From Balanoglossus misakiensis (Eukaryota > Animalia > Hemichordata), in NCBI GenBank assembly GCA_040954595.2, contig CM082577.2, positions 6,560,301-6,624,300 on the forward strand: a stretch of DNA of 64,000 nt, in the 5' to 3' direction. The position numbers and the translations under genes were made by a program. The notes under the pieces were generated by a model. The model made no database searches and was not told the DNA's origin. It saw only the letters and a list, made by a program, of their open reading frames with translations. This document shows, piece after piece, positions 48,038 to 55,919 of the stretch (the stretch's first letter is position 1; each line of letters starts with the position of its first letter).

Positions 48038-50314
48038 CTACTTCTTTGCCGTTTTGATTGCATCCAACAATACTTCACTCAGATGATGTTGATCGCCAGT
48101 ACCTGCAGCAGAAAAAAAGGTCAAAGCTGGTGAAGTGCAGGTTGCTGATTCAAACAATTTTAACCCTTTCACCGCCGTGGTTCAGTCCAAACCCATTGGG
48201 TTCCTATCATGGCCATCATGTAGATTAAAATCCCAGCGGACTGCCCCCCCCCCCCCCCCCCCCAAGAATAATAAGGTGCCTACCTGAAATTTTCACAAGG
48301 ACACAGCGCCCTCTACAGTCCTCGCTCTTCTTAATGATATCATTCAAAGTTCTATAGAACAGTTTGACTTGTTTATCGAGGTCCTGCTGTGACAGTCCAG
48401 CCTCGGAGTGTTTGCTCATCCTGTAGATTGTGTCCAGTGGCGTGGCGTGTTCTATGATAGCGTAGTGTTTCTGAAACAATGGACATTTGGTTCCATAATA
48501 CGAGTATTTCCTTTTTACCACCAATACGCATCAGGTAACTTCATGTTTTATATCCAAAGCGTGCGATGTGCAACATCATACTCTAAATTGGTTGGAAACT
48601 ACCAGATGTTGAAGTTGATAACTGGTATTTCTAGCAAACCACATAAGGACTGAGAAGACCTGTGTTGCGAATTCACATTTACCTGTCCATCTCTGCTCCT
48701 GACTGTATACACAGTATTCCGGTACGCCCTCCTCTGAACTCCCCCTCGGTCCTGAAACAAGGGGCTCAACACATCATCTTCCGGGTCTTCCACTTCGATG
48801 TTTTTGTGTTTGTCGCTGTTCAGTTTTCCCTCCATGTAACAGTTCTGGGTGACGATGATGAAGACTTTGGGTAGGATCTCGCCGCGATCGAGCTTTGCAC
48901 CCCATTTGTCGGACTTTCGGAGAGTGTTTTCCAAATCTGTGGAAGGATTTATAATGTTTGTGGTTATTCTTCGACCATTTTGTTGAAGTACTTGAGAGAA
49001 TGCAGAGCATAAAGTGTCAGTACCCCTGACAGCCATGCGAAGCGCGATAAAATAAAGGCAAGTTTACAAAATGCCAAAATTAATACATGTATTTATCGAC
49101 AATACCCAAACCAAAAATCTATGCCAGGTTCAACTCATTTTGTGAGAGTGGAGATGGTCAGCTGTTTTGGAGATGGTGATATTTTCAAAAAACAAAAATA
49201 TGACAAAAATATCTGGGTGTTTTCTGTAATAAGTAATCAAGATAAAACTTTCTTACTTGGCAGAATAATCTGGAGATACCCAAAATAATAGGACCAGGCT
49301 AAACCATACGCAACATTCAAGTTGTTTCGCTCACTAATTTCATCTATCTCAACTTCGGACAGAGTCTGTAAAAAATGCAAACAAAACTTCAATGAATTGG
49401 ATAATTACTGAGCAAAAATTACAAATCTCCACAAAAATACAATACTGCTAATTTTTCATAATTTTGTATAAATGGTAATGAGGAACTTCACAACCAAATT
49501 TTAAAGCAGTTTTTTAAGAGCAAGCTTGGTAAAGATGGCCCTCTACGGAGCGATCTGGGGTGAAAGGGTTAACGCAATAAGAGATACCTGCTGTCAGATG
49601 GACTCATGAGAGAGCCACTAGGAAAAGGTAAACAATTCAATTAAACCCACTTTGGTGATTTAACCCTTTCACCACCATGGTTCAGCCCAACCCCATTGTT
49701 TTTCTATGATGAGTTTGGACCTCTACAGAGGGAACTGGGGGTGAAAGGGTTAAATCGAGATAGCACAATACAGCAGAGCTTACCTTGAAGTCTGACACAT
49801 GGAACAGAAGAGGCAGTGTGAAATTCACCAGCATCACAGGAACCAGTCTCGTCAAACGATCCACAAACTGTTCAAAATTAGTCACTGCCAGCACGAGCAA
49901 GACAATCACCATGGCAACGGCGAACACAAAGGGGTGGTGACCCTGACTGACACCAAATGTCGGCATGACCATTTTCATCACATCGCCTTGGTAACGGGAG
50001 TGGAAATGGCGCCATTCTTCCCACAGGAGACAGGCACGTCTTATCATCTCGCCAACAAAGATGGTCAGGTACAAAACAGCTACTGTCATCGCGACAGAGA
50101 ACAACTTTCTTCTGTGCGTTTCCTGACCAGAAAAGCAAAGGCCCTGTTTGGGAATCCACGAATTCTCATCAGTGCAGAATATCACAGTAAACACCACAGA
50201 TGCAATGACACTAATGAGTATAACTGCTACCCAGTATCCCCGTCGACCTCTGACCTCTGGCACTGGCTGAAAACCATGATGTATTGTATTGACATCATTC
50301 TCAGCATTGGCCAT
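48038..50314 (-). CDS. STING1: STING (TMEM173) paralog A, 381 aa, 5 coding exons
   Basis: Exons 50314-49784 (531 nt), 49365-49257 (109), 48936-48683 (254), 48470-48284 (187), 48102-48038 (65); all AG/GT and in phase. Hydrophobic N-terminal TM segments with CLLWEEWRHFHSRYQG; NVAYGLAWSYYFGYLQIILP; DRGGVQRRAYRNTVY; IEHATPLDTIYRMS...AGLS; ends LSEVLLDAIKTAKK*. Confidence 0.95.
49664..49749. mobile_element. piggyBac-like MITE (TTAA TSD), 86 bp, in STING-A intron
   Basis: TTAA|CCCTTTCACC...GGTGAAAGGG|TTAA. Partial copies at about 48160-48200 (left end) and 49540-49572 (right end). Confidence 0.8.
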
Positions 50315-51490
50315 GATTGCTGAAAGAATAAATGAATCAGGATATCTTTAATAGTTGATTTTACTAATGCACGACTGTCTATATAACTAACAATCCCCAT
50401 ACCAGACATGTAACCGCGACCGTAAACAGCTATTGATGACCTTATCGTGACCCCTTGGCGATGGGTGTGGTCGGTAAAGGGGTCAGCACGTCACCTGAAA
50501 TTTGAGGTCAACGTCAGTTTCACATATGTCCCTACACACGCAGCTCTTCACGGAACTAGTGGCACTGTCCCCCGAATTTCATAATTTTGAGACTCGGATA
50601 CTTGGCTTGTTCTTTCTTTGAACAAACCGTCTGTCATACAGGTGTCACCCTTATGTAAAGAATTAACAAGACATATATAGCACTTTTGATGTTCAGTTCC
50701 TTCGAAACACTTTGACATAACTCTGATAGATTTAGCGTTTATCATACCCGCTGAAATAAATTCAATACAAACCTAATTCTTCAACACCAATGTAGCTTCA
50801 ACAGAACGTCTACACCACCGGCATCTGAATCACATTCTAGCGAGAATCATCTTTCTCCTCTCTTGACACAGAAACGGTTGCCGTAAAGAGGTCGCGGTTT
50901 ACGACGATGCAGTCAAGGAACTGGAACTAGGACATGCACGTACACTGCACTGGCATTGCACACTGACGATTGCATTGTTGGATCTGGTGAAATGACAAGC
51001 TTCCGTTTTGAATATACATACATTTGAGTTAATAATTAATGCAACTGCGTTTTCGCGTTATATGACAGATCGTGCAAGTCATGTCACACACAGAAAGTGT
51101 GACTTGGTGGAATCCGTGATTCAACATGTTTGTAAAGTTCGGTACATCGACAGCCATCTAAACTGCAAAACCTATGATTTTTATGACAATCGTCTTATAT
51201 TGTAATGTAATTGTGGGTAGGATATGCGATTAATTAAGCCATAAAACAACTTTTCTTGTAAGTTGTACCACAGCGCAGCCATGCGGTAGAAACGGGGAAG
51301 GAGACTAGGCTGGCTACAGGTGTACATGTACATTCGGGTAGTCACTCAGCAATGCCAGAAATGCAGTTTCACATTGCACTCAACTATGAACAAGAAATTT
51401 AAAAAGCGTATAAAAACATGATCCATTGAAGTTTCCCTGTGGACTGGAAGCGTATTCCCCAACAAAAAATAAATGGAATCAGTTTAGGCC

Positions 51491-53505: not shown

Positions 53506-53629
53506 AATCCTCAAACAACTCACCAAGGCCTATATCAAGAACATCGACTTCATACCTGGCACAGAAACCAAAGCGATCCGTTGTGACTAGCATCGGTGCA
53601 TATTACAAGTTGTCTCAGACATTGAAATC

Positions 53630-55919
53630 ATGATCGGACAGGAAAACAACGGCTTCGGACCGATTCCACGCAGAAGAGGGACGGGGTTAGTGAAGGCGGC
53701 GTCGATTTTATTCGCAGTGCTGTTCATGTCGGTGATTGTGCTCTTCGAATTCCCAGAGTACGAAGAGAGTTTTGGGAGGCGCATCCGGTCAACGTTGTCC
53801 GACGCGGAAAACTCGGGCGAAAGCGGCAAAAATCTGCAGAGTCTTGCCAGGGTTCTGTTCGTCTGCTCCGTAGCCATAGTAACGTTGGTCATCAGCGAGG
53901 CCATCCGACGATTCTGTTTGCTTGTTGAGGAAATACGCCACAGACACGAAAGATACGACGGCAACTTACTGAATGTTGTCGCAGCGACGTACAGAGTCAA
54001 TCACTACCAGTCTCTGTCAGTGATGGTGGTATTGGCCGTGGTGTTTTTAGTCATTTTGTCGGTCAATGAGTGGACGTTGCTTTGCCGGTACCTCGGCCGG
54101 TACGGGGATCTCGTCTTTGCTAATATGGCAGTGGCTTGCCTTGTCAACGTTTTCTTCAGTTTGAAGGTAGGTATGGTGTTTGACATGATGGAGAGTGTCA
54201 GAAATGATAACAGACAGAAGGGGTAGCAGACAGTGTGACAGACTGAGGGGGTGTCAGACAAGCTGACAGCTATAGACTAAGGGGAGACTCAGACAGATAC
54301 TTTGCAACAGTGAAAGTTGATCGAAGAATACACACAAAGAGACCAAGAAACCTGTCCGATCTTCTAAATCTAAATTACCAAGAAAACGATTAAAAAGTGA
54401 AACAAATCGATGCCAGAAATGAAAGTGATCCGCAGGTAGCCACGCATCGAAATTGTGGAATACTGTCTTCATTAGTGTACACACATTGTGTATTTTTTTT
54501 TTCGCAGACACCGTCGGACGTGGAAATCAGCGAATTCAGTGAAAAAGACCACTTGAATGTTGCCCATGGGCTGGCTTGGTCGTTCTATTTTGGATACCTG
54601 AAGATCATTCTTCCAGGTAAACCATGTAAACATTTCCAAGAATAAATCACACCACAATTACATATCCAAAAAGCATTGTTACACGTCACCTTCAAACGAC
54701 TGTTGATTCAGGAGAAGTGGTTTTCCTTATGTTTTTTTACACACACACACACATAGAGAGAGGGAGAGAATTTATTGATCATGTCTCATACAAGCATCCG
54801 AAACTGATTCTCAGAACTGGAGAACACCATCGCCAAGTCCAAGTGGAACAACGAAATGAAAGAGGGCGGTCTGTTGGCCAAGCTGTTCATCGTGATTCCC
54901 GAGGACTGCGTCATCCCTGACAATCTGGGCGAGGATTATCCGCACGTCAAGTTTGAGGAGAAGCTACCTCCCCTGGAAGTGGACCGTGCCGGGGTCAAGA
55001 AACGCCACTACGTCAACTCGGTGTACCAAGTGACCGACCCCAGCACTGGATATGTAAGGGCGCTTTCACTAATTACTACGGGAGGGGATGGTCCGGCGGA
55101 ATTTGGAGTGGGTCAGTCACGTAAAAGGTTATCTTCCCCCTTCCCAATTCCATCTACCGATCTATCCCGCCTGGCCCGTTATTTCTTCAGTTATACTGAC
55201 ATTTAGCAAATGAATACATATTTAATGAAAATTCCTGATATTCCGACTACTCTTTCGGAGAACAATTCCACCACGGAGAATTGTTTTGTGTATGTGTTTA
55301 TCCCCTTATGCATGTAATGTGTCTGTCTCTTCAATTTGCAAAACGGCAGGCCCGTTACTGCATCCTGGAGTACGCCACGCCGGTGGATTCACTGTATAGA
55401 ATGTCGGGTCACCCCGAAGCCGGACTAAACGCCCGGGACAGACACCAGCAAGTGCAGATCTTCATGAGAACTCTACAACAGATTCTGGATAAAACACCCG
55501 AATGTGGCAAACGATGCGTACTAGTGCCCATATCAGGTAGGTGCATGGTTATTTTGCAGAAACGTAGATTCTGTGGAATCACAAATTTGTTTCCACCGTT
55601 ACAGATAATCACAATTATTCAAATACGCACGTGTGTCTCTGAAACCCCAATGTAAGAGTTCTTTTTCGCTGGTTTGAAGTATCAGTCCACTCCATGCACT
55701 GTACTCATCGATAAATTATGTGCACATCGGAACAAGAGCAGGCGAGTATTAAAGGCAATTGCAAACTCGAACCCGAGTAATCAGTGTCTGTTCTTCACGT
55801 TACCGTCTCCAGGCCGCGACTACGAACGGTTTCCCCTGGCTCACGTCATCTTGAAGGCCATCAAACAAGTGAAGGGAGAGCAGTTCGACATTGAGGGTGT
55901 TGATGGCGAAGAGGAATGA
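53630..55919 (+). CDS. STING1: STING (TMEM173) paralog B, 392 aa, 5 coding exons
   Basis: Exons 53630-54166 (537 nt), 54508-54616 (109), 54815-55053 (239), 55350-55536 (187), 55813-55919 (107); all AG/GT and in phase. TM region with [67 protein letters not shown]; ends [11 protein letters not shown]. Confidence 0.96.

What the first reader, a model, noticed from the sequence alone, without database searches (positions are those of the whole stretch)
48038..55919. Head-to-head pair of intact, diverged STING paralogs: a two-receptor cyclic-dinucleotide sensing module
Seen: two full-length STING genes on opposite strands with ATGs 3.3 kb apart, the same intron phases, and exactly matching sizes for exons 2 (109 nt) and 4 (187 nt), yet strongly diverged proteins and no frame disruptions. 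Known: vertebrates typically have one STING, while some invertebrates carry several STINGs alongside expanded cGAS-like receptors that make different cyclic dinucleotides; STING works as a dimer that oligomerises. Inference: an old inverted duplication retained under selection, with shared upstream control. The two could split ligand space or form heterodimers with an asymmetric pocket.
Basis: partly seen in the sequence, partly recalled or inferred. Interest (0 to 1): 0.85.

Follow-up and report, generated by a model that had tools for sequence, protein, structure and literature searches.

The report
Ancient acorn-worm STING gene pair
Two intact, long-diverged copies of the immune receptor gene STING sit back to back in what is likely an acorn worm; they carry the same known messenger-selecting residues, so they likely sense the same class of alarm signal, an ordinary arrangement among invertebrates with several STING genes.

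Summary
Observation confirmed: two five-exon STING genes, head to head, ATGs 3,316 bp apart, GT-AG introns in phases 0,1,0,1, exons 2 and 4 of 109 and 187 nt, open frames (381 and 392 aa), 41% identical, synonymous sites saturated. Closest relatives are acorn worms. Saccoglossus has an orthologue of each copy, so the duplication predates the Saccoglossus/Ptychodera split; Ptychodera flava yielded four B-type proteins and no A-type. The 'split ligand space / asymmetric pocket' idea is not supported: the pocket positions human 162, 167, 232, 238, 240, 263 are identical in both and of the 2'3'-preferring type; the coral 3'3' switch (N162, S263) is absent. Their dimer-helix similarity is no higher than to vertebrate STINGs. 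Both lack the vertebrate signalling tail. The spacer holds a 1,181-bp transposon-like insert and NF-kB/IRF-like sites, mostly on B's side. Lineage A has conserved features of its own (5-residue acidic insert before the lid, no R284). Multi-STING invertebrates are published (coral, oyster, crinoid); the scan noted a similar coral pair before. No expression data. New member of a known kind; modest interest.

The parts
49784..50314 (-). STING-A coding exon 1 (N-terminal transmembrane domain, 177 codons)
   Evidence: splice; Pfam STING_TM E 2.8e-11
49257..49365 (-). STING-A exon 2 (connector and dimer helix alpha1; S162, Y167 in human numbering)
48683..48936 (-). STING-A exon 3 (lid with R232, R238, Y240; 5-residue acidic insert shared with Saccoglossus A)
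48284..48470 (-). STING-A exon 4 (E260, H261, T263; L at 284)
48038..48102 (-). STING-A exon 5 (last helix and stop; no C-terminal tail)
53630..54166 (+). STING-B coding exon 1 (transmembrane domain, 179 codons)
   Evidence: Pfam STING_TM E 7.8e-9
54508..54616 (+). STING-B exon 2 (connector and dimer helix; S162, F163, Y167)
54815..55053 (+). STING-B exon 3 (lid with R232, R238, Y240)
55350..55536 (+). STING-B exon 4 (E260, Y261, T263, R284)
55813..55919 (+). STING-B exon 5 (last helix, short acidic end, stop; no TBK1/IRF3 tail motifs)
51610..52790 (.). 1,181-bp non-coding element with 32-nt perfect (37-nt, 95%) terminal inverted repeats and a 7-bp target-site duplication: likely a non-autonomous DNA transposon in the spacer; holds both CRE-like sites (51711, 52630)
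51521..51531 (.). Palindromic NF-kB-like site, 1.2 kb from A's ATG and 0.9 kb from B's if the insert is left out
   Evidence: motif match only
52933..52942 (-). NF-kB-like site upstream of B
   Evidence: motif match only
53363..53376 (-). Tandem IRF/ISRE-like site upstream of B (a further core at 53452 and a half kB-like site at 53497)
   Evidence: motif match only

Best explanation
These are two intact transmembrane STING genes from a duplication older than the Saccoglossus/Ptychodera split; each likely works as its own homodimeric receptor, predicted to prefer 2'3'-linked cyclic dinucleotides made by cGAS-like receptors, and likely signals without a vertebrate tail to NF-kB and autophagy, the two likely being kept because they differ in when and how strongly they signal rather than in what they bind. 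Shown: gene structure, open frames, purifying selection, orthologues of both in Saccoglossus, identical core pocket, no tail motifs. Inferred: ligand class (from coral and human structures), output (from Nematostella and fly work), B as the inducible feed-forward copy (NF-kB and IRF-like sites within 700 bp of its ATG; its lineage is expanded in P. flava), and A as a differently tuned copy (acidic insert beside the lid, R284 lost in both A orthologues, no acidic end). The head-to-head layout is most simply the relic of an inverted duplication.
For:: two intact CDSs, pS saturated against pN 0.35 in the ligand-domain part. A groups with Saccoglossus XP_077862732 (95/97), B with four P. flava proteins and a partial Saccoglossus protein (92/92; SH-aLRT 100); AU rejects A+B (p 3e-6) and A+B+P. 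flava (p 0.007) as clades. A and Saccoglossus A both have 32 residues between positions 206 and 232 with an acidic run, against 27 in B and in 95 of 158 other domains; signature S162/Y167/R232/R238/Y240/T263 in A, B, Saccoglossus A and all four P. flava proteins, the commonest pattern (66 of 137 complete domains). Li et al. (PMC9980059): S162 and T263 mark 2'3'-preferring human STING and Sp-STING1; N and S at these places mark 3'3'-preferring Sp-STING3; both coral crystal structures are homodimers; no LxIS or PxPLR-type motif; Wu et al. (PMC4117786): the tail is seen only in vertebrates. Margolis et al.: Nematostella STING lacks the tail, binds 2'3'-cGAMP tightly and is itself induced by it; 2 kB plus 1 ISRE site reached in 3 of 2000 shuffles of the unique spacer.
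Against: No expression, binding or signalling data for either gene. Second-shell pocket positions do differ (163 Y/F, 239 A/H, 241 R/V, 261 H/Y, 267 T/S), H261 is found in 0 of 161 other domains, and three 2'3'-preferring coral STINGs still showed distinct affinity patterns, so base preference could differ. The motif test was made after I had seen the motifs by eye; single sites are weak (124-134 of 2000 shuffles for one kB site) and 1 of 22 control tiles elsewhere in the window also holds 2 kB plus 1 ISRE site. In Nematostella, STING knockdown did not change the cGAMP response and IRF knockdowns had no effect, so the output step is not firm even there. B's support in the careful tree is below the starred mark (92/92) because the Saccoglossus B row is a 129-aa fragment.
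Confidence: 0.6

Rival explanations
1. Split ligand space, as in the coral Stylophora: A and B are homodimers tuned to different cyclic dinucleotides (linkage or bases) from different cGLRs.
For: Published precedent (PMC9980059); Saccoglossus has 10 cGLRs in its Table S5; A and B differ at 5 of the 18 wider pocket positions listed, and A has H261 (0 of 161 others) and an acidic insert just before the lid.
Against: The two positions shown to switch linkage preference (162, 263) and the four universal contacts are the same in both. H261 is not shared by Saccoglossus A (Y), so it is not an A-lineage trait.
Confidence: 0.18
2. A and B form heterodimers or mixed filaments from a shared promoter, A tuning the threshold of B; an asymmetric dimer would suit asymmetric ligands.
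For: Adjacent divergent genes with one palindromic kB-like site between them; dimer helix 153-173 identical at 18 of 21 positions, so pairing is not excluded; both lineages kept since the acorn-worm ancestor; A differs at the polymer-interface residue 284, where human substitutions cause ligand-free activation (PMC10316007).
Against: 18 of 21 is a family-wide level: A matches three vertebrate STINGs (newt, lungfish, lamprey cluster; names) at 18 of 21, and 14 of 110 outside domains match B that well. The TM parts are only 32% identical. The core pocket is the same in both, so a mixed dimer would be nearly symmetric. P. flava gave no A-type protein in three searches, which argues against an obligate pair if the absence is real. 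Non-R residues at 284 are common (71 of 160 domains). The two Saccoglossus genes lie on records of different length (320,517 and 303,090 bp), so adjacency is not evident there.
Confidence: 0.1
3. Birth-and-death redundancy: A is an old, partly dispensable copy with no special role; copy number drifts between acorn-worm lineages.
For: A scores 284 bits on the B profile, which would rank second in the list, yet no P. flava A-type protein appears, and exon searches found none; P. flava shows four B-type proteins. A orthologues are less conserved than B orthologues (A/Saccoglossus A 43% whole length; B/Saccoglossus B 72% over 128 residues).
Against: A keeps every core ligand contact and the conserved TM motif residues and a lineage-specific insert after synonymous saturation; full redundancy would not last that long. 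The absence in P. flava may be an annotation or library gap.
Confidence: 0.12

Closest known systems
Ptychodera flava STING-like proteins (XP_070580238.1, XP_070580239/40.1, XP_070580241-45.1, XP_070581504.1)
   Same: B is 75% identical to XP_070580238.1 over 403 columns and 64-71% to the other three; same pocket signature and acidic end.
   Different: All four are B-type; no A-type protein was found for this species. Two carry isoform labels X1/X2 and may be annotated as one locus, though they differ along their whole length. I found no functional study of them.
Saccoglossus kowalevskii STINGs (XP_077862732.1/XP_006812784.1, A-type; XP_077865772.1, partial, B-type)
   Same: One orthologue for each window gene; A-type shares the acidic insert, R241, loss of R284 and the short end.
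   Different: On records of different length, so no evidence of head-to-head linkage; Li et al. Table S5 counts only one STING for this species.
Stylophora pistillata Sp-STING1-7 (Li et al. 2023, PMC9980059; PDB 8EFM, 8EFN)
   Same: Several TM-STING paralogues in one invertebrate genome; same TM plus ligand-domain architecture.
   Different: Coral ligand domains are 54-75% identical and include a 3'3'-preferring member with N162/S263; the window pair is 49% identical in this part and both have S162/T263. The duplications are independent (cnidarian and ambulacrarian rows fall in separate clades).
Nematostella vectensis STING (A7SLZ2; PDB 5CFL-5CFR) and human STING/TMEM173 (PDB 7SII, 6NT5; that these chains are human is recalled)
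   Same: TM motif, connector, dimer helix, lid and pocket residues; the B orthologue matches the full-length solved chains at E about 1e-52.
   Different: Neither window protein has the vertebrate TBK1/IRF3 tail; human has one gene.

Membership tests
Metazoan TM-STING (TMEM173) | N-terminal STING transmembrane domain (PF23417) | tested here: met
   44.2 and 36.3 bits against cut-off 28.1; hydropathy shows 3 strong segments in A and 4-5 overlapping ones in B at threshold 1.6
Metazoan TM-STING (TMEM173) | Cyclic-dinucleotide-binding domain (PF15009) | tested here: met
   exons 2, 3, 4 of each gene pass the cut-off separately; searches hit solved STING chains
Metazoan TM-STING (TMEM173) | Universal ligand contacts Y167, R238, Y240 (plus R232) | tested here: met
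   present in A and B
Metazoan TM-STING (TMEM173) | Binds a cyclic dinucleotide as a dimer and oligomerises | not testable with these tools
   Needs biochemistry
3'3'-preferring STING (Sp-STING3 type) | N at human 162 and S at human 263 | tested here: not met
   Both have S162 and T263
Vertebrate-type STING with C-terminal tail | Tail after residue 340 with IRF3 (LxIS) and TBK1 (PxPLR) motifs; motif patterns recalled, S366/L374 criterion from PMC4117786 | tested here: not met
   A ends right after the last helix, B has about 14 mostly acidic residues; no motif
TIR-STING (oyster, bacterial) | N-terminal TIR domain | tested here: not met
   exon 1 of both is STING_TM; no TIR hit among the 9 ORFs scanned
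Bidirectional-promoter gene pair | Divergent transcription starts close together (under about 1 kb, recalled definition) with co-expression | tested here: inconclusive
   ATGs 3.3 kb apart (2.1 kb without the insert), both behind acceptor-like sites; spacer CpG o/e 1.08 against 0.57 in window 1-48000; no RNA to place the starts
Obligate heterodimeric receptor pair | Both partners kept and linked across relatives | tested here: inconclusive
   Both in Saccoglossus but on different records; no A-type found for P. flava

The most novel reading that the evidence does not exclude
Acorn worms have kept, since their common ancestor, a second STING subtype (A) with an acidic insert beside the ligand lid and a changed polymer interface, which shares an NF-kB-controlled divergent promoter with the standard subtype (B) and co-assembles with it into mixed dimers or filaments that set the threshold of cyclic-dinucleotide signalling: a natural paralogue-heteromer of STING, which my searches did not find described.
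Probability: 0.08. Interest if true: 0.7.

Novelty: new member of a known kind. Interest (0 to 1): 0.3.

Why it matters
Multi-STING invertebrates are known, so the pair itself is not a surprise. What is added: the A/B split is an old, stable feature of acorn worms (not a recent tandem copy), the published count of one STING for Saccoglossus is probably too low, and the pair is a clean natural experiment in a deuterostome: same core pocket, different membrane domain (32% identical), lid surroundings and polymer interface. It could help to ask how tail-less STINGs signal and whether paralogues mix, but only after expression and binding are measured.

Tried and rejected
Own genome: none held, so no genome-wide count of STING or cGLR genes and no synteny test. 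RNA: no RNA holder listed; not evidence either way; read laying could not be used. Complex prediction of the two transmembrane exons: no answer (score 0.01, alignments not used, partner fold uncertain, controls not folded); not evidence for or against binding; ligand-domain dimers were not modelled. Word searches with A's exon 1 (861 candidates) and exon 3 (14 candidates) found no relative; weak evidence by the tool's own text, and they also missed the Saccoglossus A protein. Metagenome scan: 481 pattern matches, none confirmed. Recent duplication or gene conversion between A and B: rejected; among identical residues only 9 of 25 degenerate codons in exon 2 and 58 of 148 overall are the same codon. 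'A carries SAVI-like activating changes (Q281, L284)': set aside, because R is present in only 35 of 160 (281) and 89 of 160 (284) homologous domains. 'CRE + kB + IRF enhanceosome': the two CRE sites lie inside the transposon-like insert. Candidate 5' donor sites in the spacer scored 8.1 at best against 7.4-11.9 for the real donors; no first exon could be placed. Whether A and B lineages are sisters or one is closer to crinoid STINGs is unresolved (polytomy; AU p 0.42). Alignment A2 misplaced A's fragments and was not used. The 54-row tree is the quick tree only. Literature searches for hemichordate STING or STING paralogue heterodimers listed nothing on point; subscription papers are mostly not covered. 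PMC10917227 and PMC8662601 (passages) were not informative.
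Full report
1. Observation. The region holds two five-exon genes in divergent orientation. Spliced by coordinates, A (- strand, 50314 to 48038) gives 381 aa and B (+ strand, 53630 to 55919) 392 aa, without internal stops; 8 of 8 introns are GT-AG with phases 0,1,0,1 in both; exon 2 is 109 nt and exon 4 187 nt in both; ATGs are 3,316 bp apart. Pfam places STING_TM on exon 1 and STING_LBD on exons 2-4 of each. 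Identity is 152 of 369 (41%): 32% in the TM exon, 49% in the rest. No third copy lies in the window.

2. Whose genes, and how old. B's exon 3 retrieved four Ptychodera flava proteins (60-90% identity), all on a 41.5-Mb record; whole-length identity of B to the best is 75%, so the window is likely an enteropneust hemichordate closer to P. flava than to Saccoglossus, but not identical to the P. flava proteins held. A profile of these four (628 hits at E up to 0.001, best 150 listed) brought in A's best match, a Saccoglossus kowalevskii STING (40%), and a partial Saccoglossus protein 70% identical to B. In a 22-row tree (rows chosen from the named and top hits; LG+G4) A groups with Saccoglossus A (95/97), B with P. 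flava and Saccoglossus B (92/92), and both with three crinoid STINGs (95/94), apart from chordate and cnidarian rows (names). AU tests reject A+B as a clade (p 3e-6) and A+B+P. flava (p 0.007); a hemichordate-only clade is neither shown nor rejected (p 0.42). An independent mark agrees: A and Saccoglossus A both have a five-residue acidic insert before the lid (32 residues between positions 206 and 232, against 27 in B and in 95 of 158 other domains). So the duplication predates the split of these acorn-worm families. Synonymous sites are saturated (pS 0.75) while pN is 0.43; in the ligand-domain part dN is 0.47 and dS at least about 2.4 (the dS value is near saturation and only a bound), which means long purifying selection on both. 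No gene conversion is visible.

3. Copy number is fluid. A scores 284 bits on the profile and would rank second in the list; no P. flava protein of that type is in it, and two word searches found none (weak). P. flava may have lost A and multiplied B, or A is unannotated there. The two Saccoglossus genes sit on records of different length, so the head-to-head layout is not shown to be conserved; that assembly is fragmented, and I could not read gene order in any relative.

4. Ligand pocket. Human numbering was carried over through the alignment of the B orthologue to full-length solved STING chains. Li et al. (PMC9980059; I read section 8, passages of section 9 and figure legends, and two rows of supplement file 5) report that 88% of animal genomes have one STING, that coral and oyster have 3-10, and that the linkage switch lies at human 162 and 263: S/T in 2'3'-preferring human STING and Sp-STING1, N/S in 3'3'-preferring Sp-STING3. 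A and B both read S162, Y167, R232, R238, Y240, T263, as do Saccoglossus A and the four P. flava proteins; this is the commonest signature (66 of 137 complete domains). Differences are second-shell: 163, 239, 241, 261, 267. A's H261 is unique (0 of 161), but Saccoglossus A has Y. So the known determinants predict the same ligand class; finer base preferences cannot be excluded.

5. Dimer and output. The dimer helix is identical at 18 of 21 positions, the same as A's match to three vertebrate STINGs; 6 of 110 outside domains match A and 14 of 110 match B at least this well. That allows cross-pairing but is no sign of co-adaptation. Neither protein has the vertebrate tail (Wu et al., PMC4117786, passages). 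For tail-less STING the published output is NF-kB-dependent gene induction and autophagy, with caveats (Margolis et al., 10.1101/2021.05.13.443009, passages); a FADD/caspase route in flies is known to me only from a search listing (PMC13144350). A has L and Saccoglossus A has K at 284, a polymer-interface residue whose human substitutions activate STING (PMC10316007, passage), but 71 of 160 homologous domains are not R there, so this is a lead only.

6. The spacer. It is CpG-rich (o/e 1.08 against 0.57), as a promoter region would be. Its middle 1,181 bp (51610-52790) has 32-nt perfect terminal inverted repeats and an exact 7-bp flanking duplication: likely a recent non-autonomous DNA transposon, with no second copy in the window. 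Both CRE-like sites lie in it. Outside it are a palindromic kB-like site at 51521, a kB-like site at 52933, a tandem IRF-like site at 53363 and weaker matches at 53452 and 53497. The joint pattern was reached in 3 of 2000 shuffles but also by 1 of 22 control tiles, and I chose the motifs after seeing them. Most sites are within 700 bp of B's ATG; the 1.2 kb next to A has none of the kB or ISRE consensus. This fits an inducible B better than a symmetric shared promoter, but both genes likely have untranslated first exons whose starts I could not place, and no RNA run was listed.

7. Mechanism. Best reading (0.6): two independent homodimeric receptors for 2'3'-linked cyclic dinucleotides; ligand closes the lid, the dimer oligomerises and signals without a tail; the copies are kept through differences in expression and tuning, B being the feed-forward inducible copy. 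Rivals: different ligands through second-shell changes (0.18), drift and redundancy (0.12), heteromers (0.10).

8. Comparison and verdict. Both are members of the metazoan TM-STING family by every feature testable here; neither is of the Sp-STING3, TIR-STING or vertebrate-tail type. Several STINGs per genome are published for coral, oyster, crinoid (3), Hydra and amphioxus. Ten searches of the held library, seven of them on this point, listed no paper on hemichordate STING paralogues or on STING paralogue heterodimers; I saw only two rows of the supplements of Li et al., whose STING table may list further hemichordate entries. Real feature, new member of a known kind, interest 0.3.

Noticed in passing
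window 56549-64000: Satellite array of an 88-bp unit, about 85 copies, 97% matches, starting 630 bp after B's stop and running off the window; one AATAAA at 56430 lies before it.
   Followed up: partly
window 51610-52790: Transposon-like insert with 32-nt perfect terminal inverted repeats and a 7-bp target-site duplication; family not identified; may be polymorphic and may affect the regulation of both STING genes.
   Followed up: partly
window 49657-49756, 48159-48211, 49536-49572: A 100-bp MITE-like element with 21-nt inverted ends in A's intron 1, with partial copies in intron 1 and intron 4.
   Followed up: partly
window about 15800-38000 (+): Multi-exon Lgl/tomosyn-family gene (LLGL domain E 2.3e-33 at 27281-27553); its 3' end lies towards A's 3' end; useful as a synteny anchor.
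   Followed up: partly
window 29770-31650 (-): A 626-codon open frame with BTB and BACK domains, single-exon, nested antisense within an intron of the Lgl/tomosyn-family gene; its C-terminal half has no Pfam match.
   Followed up: no
window 24-453: A 430-bp stretch that is 91% identical to its own reverse complement (long imperfect palindrome).
   Followed up: no
Li et al. Table S5: Saccoglossus is listed with one STING, but two distinct STING proteins (one partial) are now on record, so the 88% single-copy figure may be somewhat high.
   Followed up: partly
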